Source: Minisyncoccota bacterium
GTDB taxonomy: Bacteria; Patescibacteriota; Minisyncoccia; 2-02-FULL-40-12; GWA2-44-9
NCBI GenBank assembly: GCA_018062285.1
Contig: JAGOSO010000002.1
Span: 3,164-67,163 of the forward strand
Length of the DNA stretch: 64,000 nt
Reading direction: 5' to 3'
Position 1 is the stretch's first letter. Every line of letters begins with the position of its first letter. Of this stretch, positions 8,082 to 50,218 are shown in pieces. The translations under genes were made by a program, and so were the position numbers. Below the pieces are notes generated by a model that searched no databases, was not told the DNA's origin, and worked only from the letters and a program-made list of their open reading frames with translations.

Positions 8082-8393
8082 TTAGTCCTGATGGGCGTCG
8101 GTGCCTGCCATGCGAAGACAGTCAGTTTCGGAATGCTTGGTCGTGCAAGTGCACGACCCGACGAACTCACACTTACCCATACCGAAGGGGCATCGTTCTC
8201 CGCCCTGTTCGGCCAACTCGACCCTGGTGTAACTGACGTGCGGCCCTTTGTGTTTGGGAACATCCACACGAGGGGTGAAACTCCCAAGCGCATGAAACAT
8301 GGCGAAGATGTCGGGACGAATCCCCTTCTCCGCTTCCATGATCTTGAGTGCCTCACGCCTATCCAGCTCGCGTTTGACTTGCCGACTTGCCAT
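8082..8393 (-). CDS. Hypothetical Cys-rich protein (approx. 103 aa) in a GC-rich cassette
   Basis: ORF MASRQVKRELDRREALKIMEAEKGIRPDIF...CPFGMGKCEFVGSCTCTT; GGAGG 7 nt upstream of the ATG; strongly GC-biased codons unlike the neighbours; own promoter and terminator. Confidence 0.55.
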   Translation of the reverse strand: MASRQVKRELDRREALKIMEAEKGIRPDIFAMFHALGSFTPRVDVPKHKGPHVSYTRVELAEQGGERCPFGMGKCEFVGSCTCTTKHSETDCLRMAGTDAHQD

Positions 8394-10133: not shown

Positions 10134-10436
10134 TTAAGCTTTGGGTTTATCTAATTTATGCAAGCCGATTGCTTTGACCCCGAAATAAACGACAAAAGCG
10201 ATTACCAAAAAATCTATCACGACACTTAATAAATCACCGTACATAATTTGGGCTGAGCCAATTCCAAACGATGCATTCTTTAAACCACTGGTCGAACCAA
10301 GGGCCACACTCAATAGCGGATTAACAATATCCACGACTATTGCCGCGACAACCTTCGACACCGCACCTCCAAGGATAAAACCTACAGCCAACCCTACGAC
10401 GCCCTGTTCTCTTATAAAATCAATGAATCCCCTCAT
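10134..10436 (-). CDS. mscL: Large-conductance mechanosensitive channel MscL
   Basis: MRGFIDFIREQGVVGLAVGFILGGAVSKVV... canonical MscL N-terminus and TM1. Confidence 0.85.
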   Translation of the reverse strand: MRGFIDFIREQGVVGLAVGFILGGAVSKVVAAIVVDIVNPLLSVALGSTSGLKNASFGIGSAQIMYGDLLSVVIDFLVIAFVVYFGVKAIGLHKLDKPKA

Positions 10437-10499
10437 AGAATTTAAGTTAGTTTATTAAGCCCAGTATATCATTATTTTAAAATATGAATAATTAAAAAA

Positions 10500-10533
10500 G
10501 GCTGGTGATCGTGCCTTAGCACGATCACCAGCC
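10500..10533 (-). terminator. Rho-independent terminator (perfect 15-bp stem) of paralog 1; identical copy at 10997-11030 for paralog 2
   Basis: ggctggtgatcgtgc-cttag-cacgatcaccagcc followed on the minus strand by a T-run. Confidence 0.7.
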
Positions 10534-10547
10534 GTGACGCCGAGCTG

Positions 10548-10886
10548 CTACATCATCCAGGCCATGAAGAAATCCATGTACGAAAGATTGTTCACCAGCA
10601 CAGTCAAGCCGTCACACTTGTCGGCAAATGAATTGCCCATGAAGTCGTTCATCAGCCAGGCAGCGTACCGCTCCTCGCGGTCAGCCCCGTAGTAGTGACA
10701 GTTGTGCCCGTCGATCACGACGTCCGTTCTTCCGATCGCCCAAATAAGGCGGATGAGCGTCCCGTCCTGATCAACGAAAGCAATCTCTCCATCCGTGGAC
10801 GCCGCCTGCAGGGAGGAGGTGGCGATTGGGGCGGCCATGACCAGGGCCACCATCAGAGCAAGAACCAACTTTCTCAAACGTTTCAT
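10548..10886 (-). CDS. Small secreted Cys-containing protein, tandem paralog 1 (signal peptide; C-terminus ...FFMAWMM)
   Basis: MKRLRKLVLALMVALVMAAPIATSSLQAAS signal peptide; GC-rich; GAGGG SD; the tool's longer ORF to 11027 runs into the upstream promoter, so the start is placed at MKRLRK. Confidence 0.6.
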   Translation of the reverse strand: MKRLRKLVLALMVALVMAAPIATSSLQAASTDGEIAFVDQDGTLIRLIWAIGRTDVVIDGHNCHYYGADREERYAAWLMNDFMGNSFADKCDGLTVLVNNLSYMDFFMAWMM

Positions 10887-10941
10887 TTGCTTTCCCTCAC
10901 GAAAATACTGGGCCCAACCGGTAGGACTCAGTAGTTTCAAT

Positions 10942-10970
10942 ATTATAGCCGATAGACCCGAAATGGTCAA
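10942..10970 (-). promoter_or_regulatory. Sigma70 consensus-like promoter TTGACC-17-TATAAT for paralog 1
   Basis: Minus-strand TTGACCatttcgggtctatcggcTATAAT about 55 nt upstream of the ATG. Confidence 0.6.
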
Positions 10971-11046
10971 TTGTGGATTATTTTTAAGTATTAAAAAAGG
11001 CTGGTGATCGTGCCTTAGCACGATCACCAGCCGTGACGCCGAGCTG

Positions 11047-11370
11047 CTACATCATCCACCACCAGAAGTTCATGGCCTCGAGGTTGTCGATCATCAGGTT
11101 GATGTCATCGCACTTGTCGGCGAAGTCATTGCCGCGCAAGTCGTTCACCAGCCAGGCAGCATACCGCCAGGCTCTTTCCGGGCCGTAGTACTGGCACTGG
11201 ACGCCGTCAATGATCACAGCCTTTGACTGCTTGTAGATGACAACCAGACGCCCCTGATCATCGACGAAAGAGACCTCGTCGCTGGAGGCGCGAACGGTCG
11301 TGGTGGTGACTGTGCCGGCCATGAAAAGGGCCACCATCAGAGCAAGAACCAGCTTTCTCAGACGTTTCAT
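11047..11370 (-). CDS. Small secreted Cys-containing protein, tandem paralog 2 (C-terminus ...NFWWWMM)
   Basis: About 45% identical to paralog 1 with the same signal peptide MKRLRKLVLALMVALFMAG and conserved DGxxCxYYG...YAAWLxND...FADKCD core. Confidence 0.6.
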   Translation of the reverse strand: MKRLRKLVLALMVALFMAGTVTTTTVRASSDEVSFVDDQGRLVVIYKQSKAVIIDGVQCQYYGPERAWRYAAWLVNDLRGNDFADKCDDINLMIDNLEAMNFWWWMM

Positions 11371-11425
11371 TTGCTTTCCCTCACGAAAATACTGGGCCCA
11401 ACCGGTAGGACTCAGTAGCTTGTTT

Positions 11426-11454
11426 ATTATAGACCATAGCTAGAAAATAGTCAA
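11426..11454 (-). promoter_or_regulatory. Sigma70 consensus-like promoter TTGACT-17-TATAAT for paralog 2
   Basis: Minus-strand TTGACTattttctagctatggtcTATAAT at the equivalent position of the duplicated unit. Confidence 0.6.
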
Positions 11455-11508
11455 TAGGGGCCAATAATACAAAAATTAAAGGCCCTATTCTTTACTATTT
11501 AAAATAAA

Positions 11509-11751
11509 TTACCGATGAGGGCAGCCGGCCCAGCAACATGGACGACGCATTCCGCCCTTCATTTTTGAGATCGCTTTTTCGATACGAATATTTCTTGTCT
11601 CGGCTTTCTTGCCCGAAATCACCCAGCAAATCCATTCATTCTTAGCTAAGGGCGTAATGCTATTCCACAATGCCTGCACTCTCTCAATCGAACCAATCGC
11701 CTCTTTCAAGTCGCTTGGTAGTTTATGCGGTGTTTGTGTTTGGCTCGGCAT
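11509..11751 (-). CDS. YdeI/OmpD-associated (OmdA) family protein
   Basis: LKEAIGSIERVQALWNSITPLAKNEWICWVISGKKAETRNIRIEKAISKM matches the YdeI/OmdA pattern. Confidence 0.6.
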   Translation of the reverse strand: MPSQTQTPHKLPSDLKEAIGSIERVQALWNSITPLAKNEWICWVISGKKAETRNIRIEKAISKMKGGMRRPCCWAGCPHR

Positions 11752-11861: not shown

Positions 11862-12014
11862 TTACGACAACAGCTTGTCGCGGACGAAGTAGTAGTAATA
11901 CTTCCCGCTATAGTAAAAAACAGTGACGAGCGTCCACCGCTCCTTGCCCAGTTCGTTCAACTGTTCAACTGATGCGGTGGGGGCGGTTGTTTCCAAAACC
12001 ATGTACTCTTTCAT
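11862..12014 (-). CDS. DUF4177-like small protein (50 aa; below the ORF-track cutoff)
   Basis: Translated by hand: MKEYMVLETTAPTASVEQLNELGKERWTLVTVFYYSGKYYYYFVRDKLLS. This fits the DUF4177 M-x-YK/M-V...G-W-x-LV pattern. GC-rich; hairpin agcccgtga...tcacgggct downstream. Confidence 0.45.
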   Translation of the reverse strand: MKEYMVLETTAPTASVEQLNELGKERWTLVTVFYYSGKYYYYFVRDKLLS

Positions 12015-12200: not shown

Positions 12201-12488
12201 TTAGATTTTTTCGTAGAAGACGGCGTTGCCGGTGGTGCCGACTTGGCGAATCTTGCCCTGCTTTTCCAGTTCATCCAAATACCTCGTCACCGTCGCATCC
12301 GACACCCCCAAAGCCTGCTGAACTTCATTATTGGTCACCCTCCCCGCCCCAACCATCACCAAAATCTTCTCCAAATTCTTTTTCTTTTCCTCAACCTGCT
12401 TCTCCCCAAAACCAACCCCCGTACCATTCCTCTTCCCAACCATATACCCAATCACCGCCCCAACAACTAAATAGATTATGTTAGACAT
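12201..12488 (-). CDS. Membrane-anchored winged-helix (HTH) DNA-binding protein
   Basis: MSNIIYLVVGAVIGYMVGK TM helix then VTNNEVQQALGVSDATVTRYLDELEKQGKIRQVG wHTH; GC-rich; the ORF-track start at 12581 lacks support, so the start is placed at MSNII. Confidence 0.5.
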   Translation of the reverse strand: MSNIIYLVVGAVIGYMVGKRNGTGVGFGEKQVEEKKKNLEKILVMVGAGRVTNNEVQQALGVSDATVTRYLDELEKQGKIRQVGTTGNAVFYEKI

Positions 12489-12710
12489 GGATTTTATTAA
12501 AATAGTTATCAACAGTTGGCAGTTAATGCCAGTCTCGTACAATGTGTGTGAGCAGTCAGTGACAGAGACTGCTAAGTACATTCTGACAGAACAATCATAG
12601 ACAAACGTAGTGTTGCTAGCAAATGCTGGCGAGAGGATTCGACTTACGTTCGATCGGTTTTGTTGTACTTCAGTTTAACAAAGTACTGTCTGTAAGTACT
12701 TCACAAACCG

Positions 12711-13077: not shown

Positions 13078-14019
13078 TTAGATCTCTTCCTTAAATTTAA
13101 TGTATGCCTGTTGAATTATGTATAAACCATACTCAAGTTCTTTTTCGTTTGAAATTTCAATTGACGAAATATGTTGATTGTAGTGTTTCATACTGTTTTC
13201 GTTGTAAAAAACTTTATGTTCTGGATCTTTAAAATCTTTTGGCTGAGCTCGAGTAAAATCGATTTTGAGCTTACTTCCAAGCACGTGACAGTATAAGACA
13301 TTTTTTAAGTTGCCTGGCAGCTGGAAAGAAATATAAGATTTTGTCGGATGCGGCATCAGACTGGAGTCAAGGGCAGAAAGCCTGTCTTTCATCTGTTCAT
13401 ATAACTTTTTACCCATTCCCGACGGCCGACTCTTTAAGTAATCTTCTTCAGAGTAAGTTCTTACTTGTCTGGAAACCTTCCGCACTTCACTATCTGTAAT
13501 ACCCAAACTCTCTATGGACGCTTTGGCTCCAGTCTTCTTGATCTGAGAATATTCAATGAGATCTCCTTCGTATCGTGTGACTTCCCACAATTCAATAGGT
13601 AGGTCTCTAAAATTAATTGCTTCAAGTTGGTAGGGAGTAAAAGATCTAGTCAAAAAAATGACCTTCATTTGAGACCAGTCGAAGTCAGACTTCCCCCTCT
13701 TCTCTTGAAATTTTTTATTAAATTCTAAAACAAATTCCGCTTGGTTGTTAAGTATTAGCGATAGATAGGCAAAGCCTTGGTCAATCACACTAAAACTTCT
13801 TTCTCTTTTATATTCAATGACCACGAAAGTATTCAGACTGGGATCGTATGCCAAAGTATCTATGCGCAGACCATTGTGTTGGAATTCAGTCGCAATAAAT
13901 TCTAAGCCAAATATTTCTTTAATATTTTTTTCGGTCAACTCCTGCAAGTCCTTCTCTAGCCTAAAGGGCGCTTCTCTTATTAAACCGATTTTTTCTTGTT
14001 GTTTTTTAAATAAAGACAT
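13078..14019 (-). CDS. PD-(D/E)xK nuclease-fold protein (NucS/DUF91-like N-terminal domain + uncharacterised C-terminal domain)
   Basis: GLRIDTLAYDPSLNTFVVIEYKRER reproduces the D...(D/E)xK NucS/DUF91 core (IDxLAxDxxGxxVVIExKR); immediately downstream of hsdR. Confidence 0.5.
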   Translation of the reverse strand: MSLFKKQQEKIGLIREAPFRLEKDLQELTEKNIKEIFGLEFIATEFQHNGLRIDTLAYDPSLNTFVVIEYKRERSFSVIDQGFAYLSLILNNQAEFVLEFNKKFQEKRGKSDFDWSQMKVIFLTRSFTPYQLEAINFRDLPIELWEVTRYEGDLIEYSQIKKTGAKASIESLGITDSEVRKVSRQVRTYSEEDYLKSRPSGMGKKLYEQMKDRLSALDSSLMPHPTKSYISFQLPGNLKNVLYCHVLGSKLKIDFTRAQPKDFKDPEHKVFYNENSMKHYNQHISSIEISNEKELEYGLYIIQQAYIKFKEEI

Positions 14020-14021
14020 AA

Positions 14022-16355
14022 TTATTTATATAACAGTTTTTGGAAGCCAAAGAAAATTGATCGAATTTCAATAACTTCACCGAGCTCTTGTTCTGCATTA
14101 GCAATGGCATGATATTTCAAATTCAAGAGTATTGGTAATTTATCTTCGCCCAATTCTTCAACGCCTTTTTCCTGATACTTAGCCAAAGCAAATTCAATGA
14201 AATCTCTCTGCTTTTCATTTAAGCCGTCGAGGATGTTGTACTTATTGTTTTGAATTCTCTCAACTCGACTTATTGGTTGTAAAGCAAAAGCGATGTAGCC
14301 AAGTACATCGAATAAGTCACTGTTCTCCGCATTAACTATTTTCTGTATAGATTCAAGTTGTTCCTTGCCGTAACCCATCTCACCTAGTTTTTCAAGCAAA
14401 GCTTTTCTAGTTTGGGGGTTTGACCATATCTCTCTTAGTTGCTTTTCGTCTTTAAATAGATCTGGCAACGCTCCGTAAAGACTATTCAAAAATTCTTCGG
14501 TTGATATTGGCTTACCATCCGCACTCCAAAACGAGGTTGAGATCATGTGCTGTATTTCTCTCTCTTTGCCATCTCGAAGCTTTATTTTTAGTTTCTCTGC
14601 TGGGGGTGGTGGAAGTACTTCACAAACACAAGGTCTCTGACCGCATACTTCACAAATTCGAGGTTCAGTTGGTGGCTTAGTCTCATCTTCGGTTGTTTGA
14701 TCAATTGGTTCTCCGTCCCACTCGGGATCTAGGAAGTGGTGATACGCGTCCACGAAATCTATAATTGTGAAATATTCTTTCCCATCAAACAATCTAGTAC
14801 CACGACCAATAATCTGCTTAAACTCAATCATCGAATTTACAGGCCTCATTAATACAATATTTCTTACATTGCGAGCATCGACACCAGTAGAAAGTTTTTG
14901 TGAAGTGGTAAGGATAGTTGGGATAGACTTTTCGTTATCTTGGAACTGACGAAGATATTCTTCGCCTAAAAATCCGTCATTGGCGGTAACTCGCACACAA
15001 TAATTTGGATCTGAACTTTTCTTGTGCTTGTTTATAAAATCACGAACAAGAAGCGCGTGACCTTGTGTAGCGCAAAATACGATGGTTTTTTCATTCTGGT
15101 TTATTTCATTCAGAAATACTTTTACTCGATTTTCTTCTCGTTCACGAATGTGGATGTTCCCTCGAGCAAAATCATCTTCTTTGTAAATCTTTCCTTCCTC
15201 AACCTCTCCCTCAACCACAGTGTCATCCGAAGTATAAATATATTCATCCAGCGTCGTTTTAATACGCTTTACTTTGAATGGTGTAAGGAATCCATCGTTA
15301 ATTCCTTCTTTGAGTGAATAGATATATACCGGCTCGCCAAAATATTTATAGGTATCTACGTTATCAATTCTTTTTGGCGTTGCAGTAAGACCAAGCTGTA
15401 CCGCAGAAGAAAAATATTCCAGAATACCTCTCCAGTTTGATTCGTCGTTTGCCCCGCCCCTGTGACACTCGTCAATGATTATTAAATCAAAGTAATCTTT
15501 TGGATATTCACCAAAGTAAGGAGTTTCATCTGGGCCACTCATGAAAGTTTGGAAGATGGCAAAGAAGATACTTCCATTCATTGGAACGCCACCCTTCTTG
15601 CGAATATCATTGGGCGTAATGCGAACCAGTGCATCCTCAGGAAAAGCGCTGAAAGCATTAAACGCTTGATCGGCTAAGATATTTCTATCTGCCAAGAAAA
15701 GAATTCGAGGCTGTCTCTTACCATCTCGACTGATATTCCATCTGCTCTGGAATAGTTTCCATGCGATTTGAAAAGCTATGAATGTTTTGCCCGTACCAGT
15801 TGCTAATGTAAGCAATACTCGAGGCTTCTCTTCTGCGACAGCATCCATCACTCGGTTAACTGCTATTTCTTGATAGTAACGAGCTGATTTACTACCATTA
15901 ACATCTTCGAATGCAACATCTGAAAACTTGTTCTTCCACTCATTCTGTTCAGAATAAATTTTATTAAATAATTCCTCTGGGGTTGGGAAAGTAATAACCG
16001 GCCCTTCGATACCATTCTTCATGTCTATCTCATGGATTTCGTGTCCATTGGTTGAATAAGAAAAAGCCACCTGAAGCTTACCGGCGTACGTTTTTGCTTG
16101 TTGTACACCTTCAGTAGGTGCTAGGGACTCTTTCTTTGCCTCAATTACGGCAAGTTTTCTGTTTTTATATACCAAGACATAATCAGCAATTTCCGGCTTT
16201 TGAGGTACGCCGCCCATTTCAATCTTTCCTGGAGATATACGAAATTCTCGATGGACTTTGGACCCTTCAATAACACCCCAGCCAGATTCCTTGAGTTTTG
16301 GATCTATATATTCAGCTCTAGTTTCGGATTCATTCATGTACTTGACATTATACAA
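14022..16355 (-). CDS. hsdR: Type I restriction enzyme R subunit HsdR
   Basis: N-terminal nuclease region, SF2 helicase motifs LTLATGTGKTFIAFQ (motif I) and IIIDECHRG (DEAH); 777 aa. Confidence 0.85.
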   Translation of the reverse strand: MYNVKYMNESETRAEYIDPKLKESGWGVIEGSKVHREFRISPGKIEMGGVPQKPEIADYVLVYKNRKLAVIEAKKESLAPTEGVQQAKTYAGKLQVAFSYSTNGHEIHEIDMKNGIEGPVITFPTPEELFNKIYSEQNEWKNKFSDVAFEDVNGSKSARYYQEIAVNRVMDAVAEEKPRVLLTLATGTGKTFIAFQIAWKLFQSRWNISRDGKRQPRILFLADRNILADQAFNAFSAFPEDALVRITPNDIRKKGGVPMNGSIFFAIFQTFMSGPDETPYFGEYPKDYFDLIIIDECHRGGANDESNWRGILEYFSSAVQLGLTATPKRIDNVDTYKYFGEPVYIYSLKEGINDGFLTPFKVKRIKTTLDEYIYTSDDTVVEGEVEEGKIYKEDDFARGNIHIREREENRVKVFLNEINQNEKTIVFCATQGHALLVRDFINKHKKSSDPNYCVRVTANDGFLGEEYLRQFQDNEKSIPTILTTSQKLSTGVDARNVRNIVLMRPVNSMIEFKQIIGRGTRLFDGKEYFTIIDFVDAYHHFLDPEWDGEPIDQTTEDETKPPTEPRICEVCGQRPCVCEVLPPPPAEKLKIKLRDGKEREIQHMISTSFWSADGKPISTEEFLNSLYGALPDLFKDEKQLREIWSNPQTRKALLEKLGEMGYGKEQLESIQKIVNAENSDLFDVLGYIAFALQPISRVERIQNNKYNILDGLNEKQRDFIEFALAKYQEKGVEELGEDKLPILLNLKYHAIANAEQELGEVIEIRSIFFGFQKLLYK

Positions 16356-16357
16356 TA

Positions 16358-17500
16358 TTATAGTCCATTTGAAAAGGCTTTGTCGAGTATGGATTTCTTT
16401 AATTCATCAATACTCTCAAGCTTTTGTTTGTAGAGGGACTCTAATTCCTGAGTCTTTTCAGAAAGCTGATCGAGTTTTTTAACAATTATTTTTTGTTGGA
16501 CTAGTGGAGAAATTGGAATTTCAATACTTTCAATTTGAGTCTTATTTATAGAATTAAATACCGCACCGGAATTTCCAATCAACTGATCTTCGAACATTTT
16601 AAAAAAATAAAAAAGAAAATCCCTATCAATTTCATCACCAACCCTAATAGCAGCTAAACCACGCCCAATACAAATTTTTTCAGTAGCAAAGTTTGTTGGT
16701 CCCACAGGTGCCCTGACTGACATTAAAATGTCTCCTTTTTCAGCTTCCTTTGTAACTTGAGTAGTCCAAACTGTTGGTTTTTTTAAAAAAATATCTCCAA
16801 AATCTTTTTTACCTTGATAGAAAGGTAACCCTTGACCTAATTTATTATAAAATTTACCTTCAGGTGATTGTCCTGCGATTACTTTACAAGTTTGACCTAT
16901 TTTTTTAACTTCCCAACTCTTACCTAGATTACAAAAAACATTATTTAAATAGGACTCAAAAAGCTCTTTTGAATTTTGCAAATTATTTTCCGTATTTTCT
17001 TTTGCTATTTCTAGATTTTTAAAAGTCTCATCGAGAATTTTTACAATTCTTTTTTGTTCTTGTAGAGATTCTGGAAAAGAAATCTGTATTTGCTTAAGGT
17101 TGTCATTATAAAGTCGAGAAATTGTAGCACCTTTAGTAGAATTCCAATCACAAACCTCGTAAAAGTAGTATAGATAGTCGTTTAATACTTGTTTTTCATC
17201 ATTATCAATCCATACAATATTTGAATCTTGAAAATATGCTGGCTTACCATCATACCTGACCCGTCTTCCAATTGTTCCAGATGCAGAAATAAGGATATCC
17301 CCTTTTTTGGGGAACGAAAATTTATTATGAAACTCGTTATATATTTCTTCAGAAATAAAGGCATCTGGTTCCTTACCAAAAGTTCCAATTTTATAAAATG
17401 GAATATCTCCAATTTTTTTCGTCTGGTCTTTAAATATCCTTTTACACATTGATATCTTACCAATATCTCCGAGTTTTTTTGTTTGCCAGTTAGTTTTCAT
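16358..17500 (-). CDS. hsdS: Type I restriction-modification specificity subunit HsdS (two target-recognition domains)
   Basis: Duplicated TRD architecture with conserved central and C-terminal coiled-coil spacer (LESLYKQKLESIDELKKSIL). Confidence 0.8.
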   Translation of the reverse strand: MKTNWQTKKLGDIGKISMCKRIFKDQTKKIGDIPFYKIGTFGKEPDAFISEEIYNEFHNKFSFPKKGDILISASGTIGRRVRYDGKPAYFQDSNIVWIDNDEKQVLNDYLYYFYEVCDWNSTKGATISRLYNDNLKQIQISFPESLQEQKRIVKILDETFKNLEIAKENTENNLQNSKELFESYLNNVFCNLGKSWEVKKIGQTCKVIAGQSPEGKFYNKLGQGLPFYQGKKDFGDIFLKKPTVWTTQVTKEAEKGDILMSVRAPVGPTNFATEKICIGRGLAAIRVGDEIDRDFLFYFFKMFEDQLIGNSGAVFNSINKTQIESIEIPISPLVQQKIIVKKLDQLSEKTQELESLYKQKLESIDELKKSILDKAFSNGL

Positions 17501-17502
17501 AA

Positions 17503-18924
17503 TTACAGAAGTTCTAACATGTACTCAATTCCTTTCTTTAGTTCTGATTCATTAATTTTAGGTTTAGTTGAATTGTAATGATTGATACCATTTCTGATTT
17601 CAGTTATAAATGTTATCTCATCAGGATGACCTTTCCAGGCTCTGTCTTTTTTAATTTTTTTACTCTGTAAATTTGTAAACAAATAATTCTGATCAAATAG
17701 TTTCACAGAAGTTCTATTACTATCACCTGCATCTTCATCTATATATCTTTCATGTAATATTCCATATAGTTGATTAAAATAATCACTTGATGGTATTCCA
17801 AAAACTTCATAGTTAACTGAAGCATAGGTTGATATATTTTTATCAAACTTCTCTATACTTGTTTTATTTGTCTTATCGCTCTTAATCACTTTATAATTTC
17901 TAGATAAATCATTTTTATCTATCATATAGTTTGAGTGGGTAGCAAAAAGACAAATATTATTTTCACCTTGAGATATCTTAACTAGCTCAGACAAGAAATA
18001 TTCTTGGGCCTGCGGATGCAGATGTGTTTCTGGTTCATCCAATAATATCAATGAATCAGAAAGCTCTTTAGTCTCTCTTTGAGATGAAACATTCAACAAA
18101 AAAGATACGAACTGTTTAAATCCATCGCTCCTTTGAACTGTTGTTCTAGGTCTTCCATTTGGATCATTAACATGAAAATTAATTATGTCTCCTGATATAT
18201 CAAAAGTTATGGTAATTGGATGGTTTGGCCAGACTTGTTTTATTAACTCTGTCACCTTAACACCCAGATCAGTCCGTAGAACTTGTCTCTCTGTAGAGTC
18301 CGTAGATATTTCCTGAATTTTCGATTGAATTTTATCTTTTGTATCTAATCCTAGTAATGAAAAACAATTCTTTAAGGGGATAGAAACATTGTCAGGATCA
18401 GCAGAAAAAGCACTCAGACTTATTTCCTTATTTATCAAATATTTATCTTCGGATTTCCAGAAAATAGTGTAATGAGTTTTTTTATAAATATGATCCTTTA
18501 ACAAACTTTCAATATTATCTTTTTGATCAGATTTTATATAAGCGCAAGCAAGAGATATGTTTTTTGTAAGAGATGGGTACTCAAAATTTACATACAGGGT
18601 CACTGATTTTAATTCTTCGTTTGAAATCCCTGATTCTGGAAAGCTTTCTAGAATTATTTTTATAGATTCAGAGATTTCTTCATCTGATTGTTCGTAAACA
18701 AAAACAACTGTAATCGGATTAGGTTTATTATGAAAATCTCCTATTTCAGGTTTTATATTTGTATGATCATCTAACAACGCCAACGCCTTTAAAAAACTAC
18801 TCTTGCCAGCCTCATTAATACCAATCAATCCGTATGTAAAACTACCATCATCCTGTGGTTGTATTTCAAACGGCGCATCTTCAATGCTTCTATAATTTTT
18901 AATTCTAACTGATTTTAATTTCAT
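17503..18924 (-). CDS. ABC-type ATPase fused to a C-terminal HEPN-like domain (PrrC/RloC-like anticodon-nuclease architecture) embedded in the type I RM operon
   Basis: Walker A GLIGINEAGKSSFLKAL, Walker B/D-loop LILLDEPETHLHPQAQ, H-loop LFATHS; C-terminal EIRNGINHY fits the HEPN R-x4-H motif; position between hsdM and hsdS mirrors the E. coli prrC locus. Confidence 0.55.
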   Translation of the reverse strand: MKLKSVRIKNYRSIEDAPFEIQPQDDGSFTYGLIGINEAGKSSFLKALALLDDHTNIKPEIGDFHNKPNPITVVFVYEQSDEEISESIKIILESFPESGISNEELKSVTLYVNFEYPSLTKNISLACAYIKSDQKDNIESLLKDHIYKKTHYTIFWKSEDKYLINKEISLSAFSADPDNVSIPLKNCFSLLGLDTKDKIQSKIQEISTDSTERQVLRTDLGVKVTELIKQVWPNHPITITFDISGDIINFHVNDPNGRPRTTVQRSDGFKQFVSFLLNVSSQRETKELSDSLILLDEPETHLHPQAQEYFLSELVKISQGENNICLFATHSNYMIDKNDLSRNYKVIKSDKTNKTSIEKFDKNISTYASVNYEVFGIPSSDYFNQLYGILHERYIDEDAGDSNRTSVKLFDQNYLFTNLQSKKIKKDRAWKGHPDEITFITEIRNGINHYNSTKPKINESELKKGIEYMLELL

Positions 18925-18928
18925 AGTT

Positions 18929-20446
18929 TTAAATTAATTCACTTAATTCGCTCATGATTTTTATTACTTCTTTATCAAGTGAAGCAATTTCTTTAATAAT
19001 TTCTTTTGGAGACCTCACTGCGACCTTATCTAGCTTATTGGGATTTTTCACTGAAAGATCGTGTGTCTTCTGATCCACTTCAGATACATTTATAGTCCAA
19101 GAATTTTTTGAATCTACTCTTGTCTTGTAAAGTTCCACAAACTCAGACAAATCTTGCTCGCTGAGAGGATTAGTTTTACCAAGATTTCTATCAAGATTAA
19201 GGTGGTAATACCATATTTTCTTAGTTGGACTACCTTTTTTGAAAAATAGGATTACAGTTTTAACACCTGCTTGAAATACACCTCCCGGCAAATCAAGGAC
19301 TGTATGCAAGTCGCAACTATTTAAAAGTTCTTTTCGTAAATTGGCAGCCTTGTCTTCCGATAAAAAGGTGTTTTTTATAACAATGCCTGCGCGACCACCA
19401 GCTCTAAGCTTTTTAATAAAGTGTTGTAGGAACAGATAGGCTGTCTCTCCGCTTTTTATCGGAAAGTTTTGCTGTATTTCTTTTCGCTCACCACCACCAA
19501 ATGGTGGATTAGCTAATATCACATCAAATCTATCCTTCTCTTGTATGTCTGTAATGTTTTCTGACAGCGTGTTGGTGTGAATAATATTTGGCGCATCAAT
19601 ACCATGAAGAATCATGTTCATGACACCAATGATGTATGGAAGAGTTATTTTTTCTTTACCATAAAAAGTTTTTTCTTGTAGAACCTGCCAATCCTTTGAA
19701 GAAAGTTTCTCTCTTTTCTCCGTCATGTGATCATAAGCCTCTATAAGAAAGCCAGCTGATCCGCAGGCGCCATCGTATACAGTTTCCCCAATTTTAGGAT
19801 CTACTAATTCAACGATCGCACGAATAAGAGGGCGTGGAGTGTAATATTGCCCACCATCACGTCCGGCATTACCCATTTTTGCTATCTTACTCTCATAGAG
19901 GTGAGAAAGTTCATGCTTTTCTTCATTCGATTGAAAATGTAAGACATTTACAATATTAAGAATTTCTCTAAGGGCATAGCCACTTTTAATTTTATTCTTA
20001 AGCTCACTAAATATTTCACCGATTTTATACTCAATGGTGTTTGGATTCTCTGCACTAAATTTCCTGAGGTATGGAAAAAGTTTTTGATCAACAAAAGAAT
20101 TTAAATCTGCGCCAGTGAGTGCTTTGTTATAATCGATCTTCTCTTCTTTGTTCATGGGGCATGCCCAATTGCTCCATCTATAATCTGGTTCAAGTATGAA
20201 ATCATATTTTTTGCCAGCAAGTCTGGCTGCTTTTCCTTTCTCAATTTCTAAATCATCCAGATATTTTAAAAATATAATCCAGGAAGTTTGCTCTATATAA
20301 TCCATCGCGCCGCCAGCGTTATCGTTCTTAAGTATATTGTCTATATTTTTGAATGCCTGTTCGAACATAATACCCAAATCATGCTCTTTTTTAAGGTTTT
20401 TATCAATCCTTCGACTTTGCTCAGGACAAGTGGCCCAACGGCTCAA
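18929..20446 (-). CDS. hsdM: Type I RM N6-adenine DNA methyltransferase HsdM
   Basis: HsdM N-terminal domain (WIIFLKYLDD), SAM motif I DGACGSAGFL and catalytic NPPFGG; the annotated start is a TTG inside a palindrome, and an internal ATG (MFEQAF) is an alternative. Confidence 0.85.
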   Translation of the reverse strand: MSRWATCPEQSRRIDKNLKKEHDLGIMFEQAFKNIDNILKNDNAGGAMDYIEQTSWIIFLKYLDDLEIEKGKAARLAGKKYDFILEPDYRWSNWACPMNKEEKIDYNKALTGADLNSFVDQKLFPYLRKFSAENPNTIEYKIGEIFSELKNKIKSGYALREILNIVNVLHFQSNEEKHELSHLYESKIAKMGNAGRDGGQYYTPRPLIRAIVELVDPKIGETVYDGACGSAGFLIEAYDHMTEKREKLSSKDWQVLQEKTFYGKEKITLPYIIGVMNMILHGIDAPNIIHTNTLSENITDIQEKDRFDVILANPPFGGGERKEIQQNFPIKSGETAYLFLQHFIKKLRAGGRAGIVIKNTFLSEDKAANLRKELLNSCDLHTVLDLPGGVFQAGVKTVILFFKKGSPTKKIWYYHLNLDRNLGKTNPLSEQDLSEFVELYKTRVDSKNSWTINVSEVDQKTHDLSVKNPNKLDKVAVRSPKEIIKEIASLDKEVIKIMSELSELI

Positions 20447-20634: not shown

Positions 20635-21015
20635 TCACTCATGTTTGAGCCGTTTGCGAAGCTCTCGGTAATCCGGAAACTGTTGAGCGACTAAATCCCA
20701 GAAGTTCTGGGAGTGGTTGAATTCTTTGAGGTGGCAGAGTTCGTGGACGATAATGTAATCGGCAAGACGTGGTTCCATTAGAGCCAAGCGATAACTAAAA
20801 TTAAGATTGCCACGACGGGAACAACTCCCCCAACGAGTCTTCTGATTACGGATAGCAACTTTATTGTATTTAAAATTATATAATTGATTAAAATATTCTA
20901 ATCTCTCATGGACTAGTTTGCGGGCCGATTCTTTGTGAGCCAAATATTCCTTGCGTGGTGGCCTCGGCCTTGAAACTCTAACCCTCCGCCACACTATTTT
21001 AAATCTGGTAAACAT
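20635..21015 (-). CDS. DUF45/YgjP-like (WLM/SprT-like) predicted zinc metallohydrolase
   Basis: HEXXH zinc motif IIVHELCHLKEFNH near the C-terminus; this family is frequently linked to type I RM loci. Confidence 0.65.
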   Translation of the reverse strand: MFTRFKIVWRRVRVSRPRPPRKEYLAHKESARKLVHERLEYFNQLYNFKYNKVAIRNQKTRWGSCSRRGNLNFSYRLALMEPRLADYIIVHELCHLKEFNHSQNFWDLVAQQFPDYRELRKRLKHE

Positions 21016-21085
21016 CAGGAAATTTTAACATAAAAAAAAGATCCCCTCCGGCACGCATTGCGCACCGAAGGGGTAAGGGAAGGAA

Positions 21086-21571
21086 CTAGCTGGCCGTTTC
21101 GGCTGACTCGGGCTGGTACTCGACCATGAGTCGCCGGCCGGGTCTGTCGTAGATGACATGGTTAAGTTCTACGACCTTCGGATTCTGCCCCAGATCGAAG
21201 CGGATGGAAATATCCGCCTCATCCCGCTTCACTTTGGCTTCCGTCATCATCTGACGGACGAGGGCCAACATCGGGCTGGAGATGCCGTCGTTGCGCCAGC
21301 AGGAATCGTGGTTGGACATGACCTCCCACGAGTCCAGATGATCGAAGCGAGCGTTAACCGCATCAGTGATGTTCCACCCGACCTTCGTGTAGTTCTGGGG
21401 CCGGTGGAACAGAAGATGGGCGATCTTCTGGTGGGAGCGGGCGGAGCTGCCCCGGCGAGAGACGCGAACGTCGAACGCCATGACCAACACCTTCTTCTCG
21501 CCACTCCCCCGCGGGAGCATTGCCTCAACGATTGTCGAGGCAACTTCCTCGAAATCCATGTTCAAAGCCAT
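21086..21571 (-). CDS. Hypothetical protein (GC-rich island gene 1 of 8)
   Basis: 161-aa ORF with AAGGAGG 8 nt upstream of the ATG; the overlapping opposite-strand ORFs are rejected as GC-driven artefacts. Confidence 0.5.
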   Translation of the reverse strand: MALNMDFEEVASTIVEAMLPRGSGEKKVLVMAFDVRVSRRGSSARSHQKIAHLLFHRPQNYTKVGWNITDAVNARFDHLDSWEVMSNHDSCWRNDGISSPMLALVRQMMTEAKVKRDEADISIRFDLGQNPKVVELNHVIYDRPGRRLMVEYQPESAETAS

Positions 21572-21700
21572 CTGCTGTGCCTCCTTAGGCGTTAAAAGAA
21601 CGTATATAAATTATACCATAGTTTATATTAAAAAGCAAGTGCTAGTTTTTGAGTAAAAAAGAGCCCCCTCGGCACGCAATGCGTACCGAAGGGGTAATGA

Positions 21701-22204
21701 TTAGAGATCGTGGATGACGATCGTGGGAGCGGGAGCATTGTCCCACTTCTGCTTGATTCGCTTGAGCTCTTCTTCAACGGCCAACCCGACGCCCTCATCG
21801 ACAGACCAGAGAACATCGTTGTTGATGTCGAACCAGAGATTGAAACGATTCTCGTACGGACTGGGGGTCTTGAGACCGAGCTTGAATTCAAGGGCCTCAC
21901 GGAAGAGAGGAGCTGACTTGAAACGCATGGTCTCGTCCACAGCGACACGCTGGATGAGTTCCTGATAGCCGGTGAAATTGAATCCCCGGCCAGCAATGAC
22001 TTCCACCTTGATCACGGCTTCGCCAAAAATGATTGTCGTCTCAATGCGCGTGATACCTTTGGCAAAGATCCGTTTGAGCGACGACGGTCGAGAGCCCAAT
22101 TCAAACTCGGCGGCTCCCATGTTGTCGTACTCAATCTTTCCCCTTTCCTTGCTGGGGTCAAAGGCGCAACGCTGAATATAACGCGGATAAGCTAACTCGG
22201 GCAT
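21701..22204 (-). CDS. Hypothetical protein, paralog family A copy 1
   Basis: MPELAYPRYIQRCAF...GRGFNF...ETMRFKSAPLF...EFKLGLKTP...NLWFDINNDVLW; AAGGAGA SD; about 50% identical to 22614-23075. Confidence 0.55.
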   Translation of the reverse strand: MPELAYPRYIQRCAFDPSKERGKIEYDNMGAAEFELGSRPSSLKRIFAKGITRIETTIIFGEAVIKVEVIAGRGFNFTGYQELIQRVAVDETMRFKSAPLFREALEFKLGLKTPSPYENRFNLWFDINNDVLWSVDEGVGLAVEEELKRIKQKWDNAPAPTIVIHDL

Positions 22205-22333
22205 GTTGCCTGTCTCCTTGTGGGAAAGAACTCCCGTATTATATACCAAAATTTACAGCAAAAGGCAATCAAAAATTTTGTACAAAAAATGCCCGCTCGC
22301 AAGGACCAGTGGGGTCGATGCGAGACGGGCGTG

Positions 22334-22576
22334 TTAGTGATTGCCAAAAAATAACATGGCAAGCACGACGAGGACGATGATCCCCACGGCAAGTGGGTAC
22401 CGGTTGGCGGTGCGATTAGCCGCACGGCCACTGGCCCGACCAACGTGTCGGACACCGTTCCCTGCCACTCGGCCGACTCCACGAGCGAATCGGTTGGCAG
22501 AATCGGGGCCTCCGAAAATCATCCGAAAGCCATAAATCACGATGGCGAGAACGAGCAGTGAACCAAGCAAGGGCAT
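22334..22576 (-). CDS. Small two-TM membrane protein
   Basis: MPLLGSLLVLAIVIYGF...YPLAVGIIVLVVLAMLFF; GGAGGT SD. Confidence 0.5.
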   Translation of the reverse strand: MPLLGSLLVLAIVIYGFRMIFGGPDSANRFARGVGRVAGNGVRHVGRASGRAANRTANRYPLAVGIIVLVVLAMLFFGNH

Positions 22577-22613
22577 AAGTACCTCCGGCGGGTTAGATTG
22601 TTAAGTTTCTGAA

Positions 22614-23075
22614 TCAGCTGATACCAGCTGTGGGGCGGGCCTGCCATCTCTCTCTGATGAGATTGAGCGAGGCAGACAGTCCAACGGCTTCGATGGTCCA
22701 GAGAACATCATTCTCGATGTCGAACCAAACGTTGACTCGAGGCTGATAAGCGGTGGGCCTCTTCAGCCCGAGCTTGAATTCAATCTCGTCTTTGAATCGA
22801 GGTGCGGCGGCGAACCGCATGGTGCTGTCGGTGGCAATTCGCTCGATGTGCCCCTGATAGCTGACGAGATCGAATCCGCGCGAACCAACCAGCTCGATAG
22901 GCACAACACTGCCGGTGTTGAAACGGATCCCCGTCTGGAATTGAACAATTCCTTTTTCGAAAATCCGCCTCAACGAATTCTGGGTGCCCCACTGGAAATC
23001 GGAGATGCCCATATCGTCGAACCTGAGTTTCCCATCTTTCAAAGTGCAACGCTGAATCAAACGCGGTCTCTTCAT
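22614..23075 (-). CDS. Hypothetical protein, paralog family A copy 2
   Basis: MKRPRLIQRCTL...GSRGFDL...STMRFAAAPRF...EFKLGLKRP...NVWFDIENDVLW aligns with copy 1. Confidence 0.55.
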   Translation of the reverse strand: MKRPRLIQRCTLKDGKLRFDDMGISDFQWGTQNSLRRIFEKGIVQFQTGIRFNTGSVVPIELVGSRGFDLVSYQGHIERIATDSTMRFAAAPRFKDEIEFKLGLKRPTAYQPRVNVWFDIENDVLWTIEAVGLSASLNLIRERWQARPTAGIS

Positions 23076-23106
23076 TACCAGTATCCTTATCTGGTCCTAG
23101 AAGATT

Positions 23107-23607
23107 CTAGAACGATGTTTTTTGTCGAACCTCTTCGAGCATTCGGTCAAATTCTTCTTCCGTCATCTGTTTCAGGTGTGCTGACAAGTCTTCTGTCCCC
23201 TCTGGCCATTCAAAGATGTTTCCCTCTCGACCAGCCAGTGAATCAAATTGGTTCTTCGTGAGGAAATTGCCGACGGAGAAAGCGTCCAGATTGAACACTG
23301 CTCCACGGGATATTAACCCAACTTCGATACCAAGAGACTCATTGATATACATCAGGCGAGGGTGAACATAAACCTTGTGCCGTGGAAGTTGGAGCCAGAT
23401 TTTCTTGAGGAGGTCGAGATCGGTCACGATGACCGGACAACCAATTTCCCAAAGAACATCATCCACCCCCAAGACTACTGGCCACACCTCATCTTCTGGC
23501 AAATCCGCAATGAGCATCATGAAGGAATACCCGATACGGTATCCAGACTGATCCCCCTTTAGTACTGCCCTGAGATTTCTTGGCTTGTCTACCCTTTCTG
23601 AATACAT
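23107..23607 (-). CDS. Hypothetical protein, paralog family B copy 1
   Basis: VDKPRNLRAVLKGDQSGYRIGYSFMMLIADLPED...; AAGGAG SD; shares its N-terminal pattern with 23725-24183. Confidence 0.5.
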   Translation of the reverse strand: MYSERVDKPRNLRAVLKGDQSGYRIGYSFMMLIADLPEDEVWPVVLGVDDVLWEIGCPVIVTDLDLLKKIWLQLPRHKVYVHPRLMYINESLGIEVGLISRGAVFNLDAFSVGNFLTKNQFDSLAGREGNIFEWPEGTEDLSAHLKQMTEEEFDRMLEEVRQKTSF

Positions 23608-23724
23608 CGAATAACTCCTTATCTATATTATAGCACGTTTTAAATAAAAATCAATAGAAATAAAAAAGCCGCCCACCAGAGGTGTCCGATGGGACAGCTC
23701 TTGAATGGACGGCGTATGGGTTGC

Positions 23725-24183
23725 TTAGGCCTGATACTTCTTGCTGGCCTCGGCAATCATCTTGAGAAAATTTATTTCAGACATCGGAGTGAGAAGAACC
23801 AGCGTCGGATGCCACATGAAAGGGCGACCCTGTTGGGAGATAAGGTGCGTGAAAAGTTCGGGTGTGAGGATTTCTTCAACTTGGCAGAATTCTGGCGAGT
23901 TGGAGACTGGGGCTTGGAGTCCCAGAAGTAGATTGACATAAGCCAATCTCTCAACAACTTTGCTTGGAGCTGGGGGCATCAGTTGCCACACTCGCTGGAT
24001 CACCTCAAATTCTGTGGCCCACACGACTGATCTTGTTCGCATGTAGACCGAGCGAAAATCTTGGTCCCCGCAATGATCGAACATCAAAGAGAAAACTTTC
24101 ATCAATCGGTAACCGCTTTGGACACCATCGATGATTTCTTGCAGATTCTTGGGTCGAGAAGACCCTCTGTCAACGACTTCCAT
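23725..24183 (-). CDS. Hypothetical protein, paralog family B copy 2
   Basis: VDRGSSRPKNLQEIIDGVQSGYRLMKVFSLMFDHCGD... same RxxPxNLxxxxxGxQSGYR...F..M..D core as copy 1. Confidence 0.5.
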   Translation of the reverse strand: MEVVDRGSSRPKNLQEIIDGVQSGYRLMKVFSLMFDHCGDQDFRSVYMRTRSVVWATEFEVIQRVWQLMPPAPSKVVERLAYVNLLLGLQAPVSNSPEFCQVEEILTPELFTHLISQQGRPFMWHPTLVLLTPMSEINFLKMIAEASKKYQA

Positions 24184-24198
24184 TATTCCTGCCCCCCT

Positions 24199-24729: not shown

Positions 24730-24785
24730 ATGACTTCTCCTTGACCAATATTAAAACACAATTAAGACAATATTGCAAATAATAC

Positions 24786-49811: not shown

Positions 49812-49884
49812 GGGGGATAACGGGAATCGAACCCGTGACCGCGCTGCCACAGAGCGCTGTGATAACCGCTTCACCATATCCCCC
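49812..49884 (-). tRNA. tRNA-His (GTG) with genomically encoded G-1
   Basis: Hand-folded cloverleaf: acceptor ggggata/tatcccc with extra 5' G, D-stem gtga/tcac, anticodon loop cTGTGgc, T-arm acggg-ttcgatt-cccgt, discriminator C. Confidence 0.8.
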
Positions 49885-50006
49885 AATATTAACTACGGAC
49901 TTAATACGTCCTTCTATTATATCGTATTTTATTGCATAAATCCAGGGGTAAAGTTATCCATGCTTTACGTTTTGGCTTTTTTAACGTAGAATTCAATAGC
50001 TACGAT

Positions 50007-50081: not shown

Positions 50082-50101
50082 GAGAGGCAATAGAGCAATA
50101 T

Positions 50102-50172: not shown

Positions 50173-50180
50173 CAAGTTAG

Positions 50181-50214: not shown

Positions 50215-50218
50215 TAAG

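What the first reader, a model, noticed from the sequence alone, without database searches (positions are those of the whole stretch)
10494..11460. Tandemly duplicated cassette encoding small secreted Cys-containing proteins ending in WWMM, each with a consensus promoter and perfect terminator
Two ~490-bp units each carry TTGAC(C/T)-17-TATAAT, a conserved 5'UTR with a GAGGG SD, a Sec signal peptide, an ~80-aa mature GC-rich protein with two conserved Cys (DGxxCxYYG...FADKCD) and a Trp/Met-rich C-terminus (FFMAWMM / NFWWWMM). A 15-bp perfect-stem terminator follows each gene. The coding parts have diverged (~45% identity) while the regulatory parts are nearly identical, which suggests diversifying selection. 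This is typical of bacteriocin-like, effector or adhesion peptides.
Basis: seen in the sequence. Interest (0 to 1): 0.6.

Follow-up and report, generated by a model that had tools for sequence, protein, structure and literature searches.

The report
Duplicated orphan secreted-protein gene cassette
Two neighbouring self-contained genes in an uncultured Pacebacteria genome each encode a small acidic secreted protein with no detectable relatives anywhere; the pair is real and varies between strains, but its function is unknown and it shows no bacteriocin features or sign of positive selection.

Summary
On the minus strand, two ~490-bp units (10491-10976 and 10990-11460) each carry TTGAC(C/T)-17-TATAAT, a GAGGG ribosome-binding site, a Sec-type signal peptide, a 79-84-aa mature protein with two conserved Cys and a Trp/Met/Phe-rich end (…WMM), and a 15-bp perfect-stem terminator.

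The 5'UTR (51 nt) and the 3' flank (69 nt) are identical between the units. The mature proteins are 49% identical.

The proteins are orphans. Apart from each other, nothing real turned up in Pfam, NCBIfam, PHROGs, PADLOC, PDB sequences, about 15 billion proteins, or the viral, plasmid, genome and metagenome DNA scans.

The genes have a G+C at third codon positions (GC3) of 0.75-0.79, against 0.30-0.40 for the backbone. They lie in a strain-variable block next to mscL. A second strain (~96% identical) has only the B unit, joined directly to mscL.

dN/dS is about 0.37, so diversifying selection is not supported. The identical flanks fit gene conversion or recombination better. The mature proteins are acidic (pI 4.2), match no bacteriocin profile and have no adjacent gene recognisable as bacteriocin immunity or export, so the bacteriocin reading is weak.

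Best reading: autonomous, moron-like expression units for an accessory secreted protein that probably binds a membrane or another hydrophobic surface. The function is inferred, not shown. Interest is modest.

The parts
10491..10976 (-). Unit A: a complete transcription unit, from the -35 hexamer to the terminator T-tract
   Evidence: Direct repeats D1 and D2 and the unit alignment.
10965..10970 (-). Promoter A, -35 hexamer TTGACC
   Evidence: 11 of 12 matches, 17-nt spacer.
10942..10947 (-). Promoter A, -10 hexamer TATAAT
10887..10934 (-). 5'UTR of A. It is identical in B, has a small 5' stem-loop, and carries the GAGGG ribosome-binding site at 10894-10898.
   Evidence: Identity. The fold gives -16.1 kcal/mol with z -1.1, which is not significant on its own.
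10548..10886 (-). CDS A: 112 aa (P0001, locus tag KBC81_01095). The signal peptide is codons 1-28 (10803-10886). The mature protein is 84 aa with C63 and C91 and ends in FFMAWMM.
10500..10533 (-). Terminator A: 15-bp perfect stem, 4-nt loop, T6 tail at 10494-10499
10990..11460 (-). Unit B: a complete transcription unit
11449..11454 (-). Promoter B, -35 hexamer TTGACT
11426..11431 (-). Promoter B, -10 hexamer TATAAT
11371..11418 (-). 5'UTR of B, with the GAGGG ribosome-binding site at 11378-11382
   Evidence: coordinates read.
11047..11370 (-). CDS B: 107 aa (P0002, locus tag KBC81_01100). The signal peptide is codons 1-28. The mature protein is 79 aa with two Cys and ends in NFWWWMM.
   Evidence: An orthologue in strain contig L002 has an identical mature sequence.
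10999..11032 (-). Terminator B, identical to terminator A
10491..10559 (.). The 69-nt 3' block that is 100% identical to 10990-11058. It covers the last 4 codons (WMM plus stop), a spacer, the terminator and the T-tract. It is the likely site of the recombination that removes or adds unit A.
   Evidence: The B-to-mscL junction in L002 lies exactly at the end of this block.
10134..10436 (-). mscL, the downstream neighbour (context only, not part of the cassette)
   Evidence: Pfam PF01741 at 5e-19.
11509..11751 (-). The upstream neighbour, an 80-aa protein of the OmdA/YdeI family (context only)
   Evidence: Pfam PF13376 at 1.8e-15.

Best explanation
These are two autonomous, moron-like expression units in a strain-variable part of a Candidatus Pacebacteria chromosome. 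They are paralogues of an orphan gene family.

How each unit most likely works:
1. Each is transcribed on its own from a near-consensus sigma-70 type promoter and ends at a strong intrinsic terminator.
2. The mRNA has a strong ribosome-binding site.
3. The product is exported by Sec and cut by signal peptidase I after Ala28.
4. This releases a ~9.5 kDa acidic protein (pI 4.2), predicted to have four or five beta-strands followed by two helices. The two invariant Cys probably form a disulfide.
5. The last ~11 residues (Phe/Trp/Met-rich, ending WMM) are the segment with the highest membrane-interface propensity in both proteins. I infer that the protein acts outside the cell while stuck to a membrane or other hydrophobic surface. 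That surface could be its own envelope, or that of a host or partner cell given the episymbiotic lifestyle known for cultured Patescibacteria.

How the pair evolves: the two copies are old paralogues (dS > 1) under purifying selection. Their mRNA ends (5'UTR plus the start of the signal peptide, and the last codons plus the terminator) are kept identical by gene conversion. Recombination between these identical flanks changes the copy number between strains (B-A-mscL here, B-mscL in another strain).

Shown: the anatomy, the orphan status, the atypical composition, the strain polymorphism and the purifying selection. Inferred: expression, secretion, the disulfide, surface binding and any biological role.
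For: Anatomy and statistics.

Orphan status:
- Only P0001 and P0002 were found among 5.8 billion protein clusters.
- An exhaustive HMMER search of 1.84 billion representatives found nothing real. Its only other hits were a Sel1-repeat protein and a coiled-coil repeat protein, whose scores are inflated by repeats.
- Nothing was found in Pfam, NCBIfam, PHROGs or PADLOC, in PDB sequences, in viral, genome or metagenome scans, or in plasmids and phages.

Composition: GC3 is 0.75-0.79, against 0.30-0.40 for backbone genes.

Variable location:
- The related MAG L001 lacks the whole mscL-to-restriction-modification block.
- L005 has restriction-modification genes, then an HTH gene, then mscL, with no cassettes.

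Strain polymorphism:
- L002 (sample ERR12084920, ~96% identical) carries B at 97.5% identity joined directly to the mscL flank.
- The k=31 (from memory) Logan contigs of the source sample (L003, L004) are 100% identical to the window. They break exactly inside the shared terminator and 5'UTR, as expected if two units share those flanks.

Selection: omega is ~0.37, and mature B is unchanged between strains apart from 3 synonymous changes.

Conversion:
- There are 0 differences in 108 non-coding flank positions, while synonymous sites differ at 61%.
- At codons 6-9, the window's A and B agree with each other against L002-B. At three other sites L002-B agrees with window A.

Protein properties: pI 4.2, and the C-terminal 11-mer has the best Wimley-White interfacial score in both proteins. 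Both AlphaFold runs give the same secondary structure.

Moron definition (own promoter and terminator, GC content unlike the neighbouring genes): PMC3594210.
Against: - No expression, secretion or localisation data exist.
- The signal peptide was judged by eye only.
- Both structure models are poor (pLDDT 50-51), so the fold and the disulfide are unverified.
- The WMM ending lies inside the homogenised 3' block, so its conservation may reflect conversion rather than function.
- The unit is not in a recognisable prophage, so 'moron' is an analogy only.
- GC-richness is not proof of recent transfer. A syntenic small gene (8082-8393) is GC-rich in both this genome and L001.
- The tandem order rests on one MAG contig. 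I could not check reads. The unique promoter-A sequence directly after a terminator copy argues for the tandem order.
Confidence: 0.5

Rival explanations
1. Sec-dependent bacteriocin-like antagonistic proteins. The secreted peptides would kill or inhibit competitors, with the Trp-rich tail inserting into target membranes and the two alleles broadening the spectrum.
For: - The proteins are small and secreted, contain Cys and have a hydrophobic Trp-rich C-terminus.
- The locus is strain-variable.
- The upstream neighbour belongs to the Pfam family named 'Bacteriocin-protection, YdeI or OmpD-associated'.
Against: - There is no match to any Pfam or NCBIfam profile. From memory, those libraries include lactococcin 972 and class II bacteriocin families.
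- The mature proteins are strongly acidic (pI 4.2, net charge -6 to -8), whereas class II bacteriocins are typically cationic (my own knowledge).
- There is no YGNGV box.
- No recognisable immunity protein or dedicated transporter is adjacent. Each gene is monocistronic, between its own promoter and terminator.
- OmdA is a widespread small cytoplasmic domain, not a cognate immunity family (my own knowledge).
- There is no positive selection.
Confidence: 0.12
2. An extracytoplasmic metal-binding protein, for example for Cu(I). The conserved Met104/Met111/Met112, Trp110 and the two Cys would form a thioether/thiolate site, working like small Met/Trp periplasmic copper chaperones.
For: - There is a conserved Met/Trp cluster at the C-terminus and two invariant Cys.
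- The secreted protein is acidic.
- The only recurring, non-significant fold match was the Streptomyces tyrosinase copper 'caddie' MelC1 (TM 0.44, E>1).
Against: - The fold match is not significant and the model is poor.
- The His residues near Cys63 in A are absent from B.
- There are no copper-related genes nearby.
- The WMM codons sit in the homogenised flank.
Confidence: 0.05
3. A precursor of a secreted signalling peptide. After export, the hydrophobic Trp-rich C-terminal peptide would be cut off and act as a pheromone, as with Phr or ComS/XIP-type peptides.
For: - The C-terminus is Trp-rich, as in some streptococcal double-Trp XIP peptides (my own knowledge).
- There is a weak NCBIfam match of the signal peptide to Phr_nterm (E 0.08, below cut-off).
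Against: - The match covers only the signal peptide and is below threshold.
- The ~70-residue region between the signal peptide and the tail is under purifying selection and has conserved motifs, which is not expected of a disposable pro-region.
- No Rap/Rgg/PlcR-type receptor gene is adjacent.
- ComS/SHP precursors are much shorter and lack Sec signals (my own knowledge).
Confidence: 0.04
4. An assembly artefact or a non-functional insert. The GC-rich segment would be a chimeric join, or A and B would be population alleles wrongly laid in tandem.
For: - The short-k Logan assembly of the same sample breaks at both shared flanks.
- Composition differs sharply from the flanks.
Against: - Independent contigs from two samples join cassette sequence to AT-rich host flanks. 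L002 runs from B through mscL to the rhodanese gene. L004 runs from omdA through promoter B into the 5'UTR.
- Promoter A is a unique sequence that directly follows a copy of the terminator. That junction exists only if the units are tandem.
- The ORFs are intact and under purifying selection.
Confidence: 0.04

Closest known systems
Phage 'morons' (independent accessory transcription units in prophages; PMC3594210)
   Same: Each unit is a single gene bracketed by its own promoter and factor-independent terminator. Its GC content is unlike that of the surrounding genes, and it is present in some strains and absent in others.
   Different: It is not inside a recognisable prophage. The neighbours are mscL, omdA, an HTH gene and a type I restriction-modification system, with no phage structural or integrase genes nearby and no viral matches. 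The units are tandemly duplicated, with homogenised flanks.
Sec-dependent class II bacteriocins (e.g. enterocin P, lactococcin 972)
   Same: A small protein exported by a Sec signal peptide. Some have an N-terminal disulfide-stabilised beta region and a hydrophobic or Trp-containing C-terminal part (my own knowledge).
   Different: There is no profile match, the proteins are acidic rather than cationic, there is no pediocin box, no immunity or transporter gene is adjacent, and the mature length (79-84 aa) is larger than most.
Tandem paralogue families with concerted evolution of their ends (conserved flanks, divergent core)
   Same: Non-coding flanks are identical while synonymous sites of the core are near saturation. 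Allele sharing is patchy, and copy number changes through the repeats.
   Different: Only two or three alleles are known. Both copies have full promoters, so these are not silent donor cassettes as in antigenic-variation systems. No positive selection was detected.
Integron gene cassettes
   Same: Short (~0.5 kb) single-gene units in tandem, in the same orientation, each ending in an inverted repeat.
   Different: Each unit has its own strong promoter. The inverted repeat is a perfect 15-bp hairpin plus a T-tract, which is a terminator. It is not an imperfect attC with R/L boxes and a GTTRRRY core (read). No integrase gene was seen among the annotated neighbours.

Membership tests
Lactococcin 972 / class II bacteriocin families | Significant match to the family profile (Pfam or NCBIfam) | tested here: not met
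   There were no Pfam families at the reporting limit E<=10 (HMMER's filters drop most matches above about 0.1) for either protein. NCBIfam gave only sub-threshold matches to the signal peptide.
Lactococcin 972 / class II bacteriocin families | Cationic mature peptide | tested here: not met
   pI is 4.23 for both proteins. D+E is 13 against K+R of 5 or 7.
Lactococcin 972 / class II bacteriocin families | Linked immunity and/or dedicated export genes | tested here: not met
   Each gene is monocistronic. The neighbours are mscL and an OmdA-domain protein. An unannotated 161-aa membrane protein lies two genes away but is conserved with mscL, not with the cassettes.
Phage moron | Own promoter and own terminator | tested here: met
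   Consensus-level promoter (11 of 12) and a 15-bp-stem terminator for each unit. These are sequence predictions only, with no transcript data.
Phage moron | GC content different from the surrounding genes | tested here: met
   GC is 0.55-0.56 and GC3 0.75-0.79, against GC ~0.38 and GC3 0.30-0.40.
Phage moron | Located within a phage or prophage genome | tested here: not met
   No phage structural, lysis or integrase genes are nearby. There were no viral-contig or phage-database matches.
Sec/SPase I secreted proteins | Tripartite signal peptide with small residues at -3 and -1; no lipobox, no twin-arginine motif | tested here: inconclusive
   By inspection: MKRLRK, then a 13-15-residue hydrophobic core, then LQA|A or VRA|S at the same column, with no Cys and no RR. 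SignalP is not available and cleavage has not been shown.
Integron gene cassette | attC recombination site and a linked IntI integrase; cassettes usually promoterless | tested here: not met
   The hairpin is perfect and is followed by a T-tract, and no GTTRRRY core was seen. Each unit has its own promoter. No integrase was found among the annotated neighbours. The rest of the contig was not examined.
Sel1 repeat proteins (the only non-self HMMER hit) | Match to the Sel1 profile; alpha-alpha repeat | tested here: not met
   The Pfam Sel1 profile does not hit A or B. The similarity to P0003 is one repeat long (38% over 56 aa) and is counted several times over the hit's 10 Sel1 repeats (6 matched stretches). 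The matching region is predicted to be beta-strand.
C-terminal sorting signals (LPXTG, PEP-CTERM and similar) | Motif followed by a transmembrane helix and a basic tail | tested here: not met
   The C-terminus is an 8-11-residue aromatic/Met stretch ending in WMM, with no motif, no transmembrane-length segment and no basic tail. The NCBIfam LPXTG-family hit is sub-threshold and confined to the signal peptide.

The most novel reading that the evidence does not exclude
A and B may be founding members of a new family of secreted, surface- or membrane-targeting effectors used by Pacebacteria at the interface with a host or competitor cell. The invariant mRNA ends would serve as recombination handles that let strains gain, lose or swap alleles of the mature domain.
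Probability: 0.15. Interest if true: 0.6.

Novelty: new variant of a known kind. Interest (0 to 1): 0.3.

Why it matters
If the proteins are expressed and secreted, they would be a tractable, very small candidate for a surface or interaction factor in the Candidate Phyla Radiation (CPR), a group whose cell-cell interaction molecules are almost entirely unknown. The locus is also a clean natural example of conserved 'expression handles' around a divergent core, with copy number differing between strains. As it stands, it is one more lineage-restricted hypothetical protein family. It neither overturns nor opens a major question.

Tried and rejected
- Homology searches all found nothing real. These were Pfam, NCBIfam, PHROGs and PADLOC, a PDB sequence profile, the word-indexed search of 5.8 billion clusters, the exhaustive HMMER search of 1.84 billion representatives, tblastn-style scans of viral, metagenome and genome collections, and tblastn against plasmids and phages.
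- Exact DNA scans for the terminator and the 5'UTR in viral, genome and metagenome collections gave 0 hits. I therefore found no other cargo between the same flanks.
- The two non-self HMMER hits (P0003, Sel1 repeats; P0004, coiled coil) were rejected as repeat-inflated.
- Two AlphaFold runs gave pLDDT 50 and 51. A Foldseek search of the PDB with the poor model gave nothing below E 0.8. I did not use the other fold libraries because the model is unreliable.
- An Rfam search over the cassettes at a permissive threshold gave only chance hits driven by the terminator hairpin. The 5'UTR fold is not significant (z -1.1).
- Exact-sequence look-ups of P0001 and P0002 in the contig index found nothing.
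- Literature searches for the sample accession and for small secreted CPR proteins found nothing relevant.
- I first read the high GC3 as proof of recent horizontal transfer. I softened this after finding a syntenically conserved GC-rich small gene shared with a related MAG.
- Integron-cassette, sortase/CTERM-sorting, Tat and lipoprotein readings were rejected on sequence features.
Full report
**1. What is there**

The finding is real and lies on the minus strand.
- Gene A is 10548-10886, 112 aa.
- Gene B is 11047-11370, 107 aa.
- Each gene is preceded by a near-consensus promoter: TTGACC-17-TATAAT at 10970-10942 and TTGACT-17-TATAAT at 11454-11426, both 11 of 12.
- Each has a GAGGG ribosome-binding site 7 nt before the ATG.
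- Each is followed by a hairpin with a 15-bp perfect stem, a 4-nt loop and a T6 tail (10500-10533 and 10999-11032).
- The hairpin pattern and the 51-nt 5'UTR+ATG each occur exactly twice in the 64-kb window and never in 100 shuffles.

The two units align end to end, from the -35 hexamer to the terminator T-tract, so the duplicated unit is exactly one transcription unit. The proteins are 53% identical over the full length and 49% in the mature part. Only B ends in WWMM; the shared ending is WMM.

**2. They are protein-coding genes under purifying selection**

All length differences between A and B are whole codons. Synonymous sites differ more than non-synonymous ones. In the mature part pS is 0.61 and pN 0.35, which gives dS 1.26, dN 0.47 and omega ~0.37. 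By region, omega is 0.25-0.73 in the mature protein, and the bootstrap pN/pS is 0.58 (0.41-0.85).

A second strain confirms this. Logan contig L002 (sample ERR12084920) is ~96% identical to the window overall. It carries an orthologue of B at 97.5% nucleotide identity. Its mature protein is identical to window B, with 3 synonymous changes, and its signal peptide has 3 amino-acid changes.

dS is near saturation, so an old episode of positive selection cannot be excluded.

**3. The identical ends**

The 5'UTR (51 nt) and the 57 nt after the stop codon show 0 differences, while synonymous sites of the same genes differ at 61%. The promoter spacers and the sequence upstream of -35 have diverged.

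Selection on every nucleotide, including the hairpin loop and the spacer, is implausible. Gene conversion or recombination limited to the still-similar ends is the simpler account. Patchy allele sharing fits this:
- At codons 6-9 the window's A and B agree with each other (AAG YTG GTT CTT), while the orthologous L002-B differs at 4-5 positions.
- At three other sites L002-B carries the window-A state.

The number of informative sites is small.

**4. Strain polymorphism and context**

In L002, B is joined directly to the mscL upstream region. The junction lies exactly at the end of the 69-nt shared block. One strain is therefore omdA-B-A-mscL and the other is …B-mscL. That is the expected result of recombination between the identical 3' blocks, or of gaining A through them.

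Logan contigs of sample SRR11088367 (L003, L004) are 100% identical to the window. They stop inside the shared terminator and inside the shared 5'UTR. This is what a de Bruijn assembly with k=31 (the k value is from memory) does when two units share those flanks. L002 runs through both flanks without a break.

The tandem order in the MAG is supported by the unique promoter-A sequence that directly follows a terminator copy. I could not check reads.

In related genomes:
- MAG L001 (rhodanese 84% identical) has YgjP, a 65-aa gene, DUF167 and rhodanese adjacent to one another. It lacks the whole 10.1-20.6 kb block of the window: mscL, the cassettes, omdA, the HTH gene and a type I restriction-modification system.
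- In L005, restriction-modification genes, an HTH gene and mscL are adjacent, with no cassettes.
- In L007-L009, mscL sits next to a serine recombinase and restriction-modification genes.

The cassettes therefore lie in a variable hotspot. There are no phage genes around them.

**5. Orphan status**

Apart from each other, the proteins have no detectable relatives.
- Profile libraries: nothing in Pfam, NCBIfam, PHROGs or PADLOC, and nothing among PDB sequences.
- Protein databases: only the two proteins themselves among 5.8 billion clusters. In an exhaustive HMMER scan of 1.84 billion representatives, the only other hits were a Sel1-repeat protein and a coiled-coil protein. Those scores come from many repeats each matching weakly. 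Pfam's Sel1 profile does not hit A or B, and the matching region is predicted to be beta-strand.
- DNA collections: nothing in the translated or exact DNA scans of viral, genome and metagenome collections, or in plasmids and phages.

**6. Composition**

GC3 is 0.75 for A and 0.79 for B, against 0.30-0.40 for backbone genes. This fits foreign origin, but it is not proof. Several other small hypothetical genes in this window are also GC-rich. One of them, 8082-8393(-), is conserved at the syntenic position in L001 at 43% identity and is GC-rich there too. In this lineage, GC-richness seems to be a trait of small, fast-evolving accessory genes.

**7. The proteins**

By inspection, each has a standard Sec signal: MKRLRK, a 13-15-residue hydrophobic core, and LQA|A or VRA|S at the same column. 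There is no lipobox Cys and no twin arginine.

The mature proteins are 9.3-9.6 kDa and acidic (pI 4.2; 13 acidic against 5-7 basic residues). They are rich in Trp, Met, Phe and Tyr. The last 11 residues are the best membrane-interface segment of each protein on the Wimley-White scale.

Two AlphaFold runs were of low confidence (pLDDT 50 and 51). They agree on four or five beta-strands followed by two helices, with the second helix running to the C-terminus. Foldseek found nothing significant. The two invariant Cys (C63 and C91 in A) could form a disulfide; this is an inference.

**8. Interpretation**

Architecturally, each unit matches the definition of a phage moron: its own promoter, its own terminator, and a GC content unlike the neighbouring genes (PMC3594210). 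It is not in a prophage, so this describes how the unit works and is not a claim of membership.

Functionally, I commit to an accessory, strongly expressed, Sec-exported small protein that acts outside the cell and associates with a membrane or hydrophobic surface through its aromatic/Met tail. Confidence in the whole package is 0.5. It is high for the genetics and low for the role.

The rivals are weaker:
- The bacteriocin reading (0.12) is weakened by the acidity, the lack of any profile match, and the absence of immunity or export genes. The neighbouring OmdA domain, named 'bacteriocin-protection' in Pfam, is a widespread small domain and not a cognate immunity protein (my own knowledge).
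- Metal binding through Met, Trp and Cys (0.05) is possible but unsupported.
- A pheromone precursor (0.04) is also possible but unsupported.
- An assembly artefact (0.04) is unlikely, given independent contigs from two samples.

**9. Verdict**

This is a well-formed, strain-variable tandem pair of orphan secreted-protein genes with homogenised expression signals. It is a new variant of a familiar kind of accessory element and is of modest interest (0.3).

Noticed in passing
window 21016-24785: A second GC-rich island (GC3 0.51-0.78) is inserted between YgjP-like (20635-21015) and a GT4 glycosyltransferase (24786-25934), two genes that are adjacent in the related MAG L001. It holds six ORFs with no Pfam or PHROG hits. 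By eye, these include two tandem paralogue pairs (21701-22249 / 22614-23075 and 23107-23607 / 23725-24183). A 43-nt terminator module with a 14-bp stem recurs after two non-homologous genes (21034-21076 and 21655-21697, 88% identical). The style matches the finding.
   Followed up: partly
window 8082-8393 (-): A GC-rich small Cys-rich protein gene (~103 aa from MASRQVKRE…, no Pfam hit) lies between the GTPase and rhodanese genes. It is 43% identical to the syntenic 95-aa gene of L001 and nearly invariant between strains (1 difference in ~410 nt, against ~4% genome-wide). Gene callers on the Logan contigs called the opposite strand. The minus-strand RNA fold has z -2.2, and there is no Rfam hit.
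   Followed up: partly
window 14022-20446 (-): A type I restriction-modification operon (HsdM, HsdS, HsdR) has an AAA_15/AAA_21 ATPase (17503-18924, GC3 0.22) inserted between hsdM and hsdS, followed by a 313-aa protein with no Pfam hit (13078-14019). The whole block is absent from the related MAG L001.
   Followed up: no
L005, L007-L009 (relatives), window 10134-10436: In several related Paceibacteria genomes, mscL lies at the edge of restriction-modification or serine-recombinase islands. This suggests the mscL flank is a recurrent insertion hotspot.
   Followed up: partly
window 39399-40865 (+): A GC-rich (GC3 0.66) 488-aa ORF has no Pfam hit. It has an N-terminal hydrophobic segment, and by eye its C-terminal half looks beta-strand-rich, reminiscent of a beta-barrel. 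That would be odd for a CPR bacterium.
   Followed up: no
window 29063-29893 (-): A GC-rich 276-aa ORF with no Pfam hit has hydrophobic segments near the N-terminus and three CxxC pairs near the C-terminus (zinc-ribbon-like).
   Followed up: no
window 11862-12014 (-) and 12201-12581 (-): The genes just upstream of omdA are also GC3-rich (0.72 and 0.61). One is a 50-aa ORF with its own promoter-like and terminator-like sites. The other is a protein with a C-terminal winged-helix HTH domain preceded by a hydrophobic stretch that I read as a possible membrane anchor, similar to the gene beside mscL in L005.
   Followed up: partly
window 49812-50289: A cluster of four tRNA genes, one on the minus strand and three on the plus strand.
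   Followed up: no
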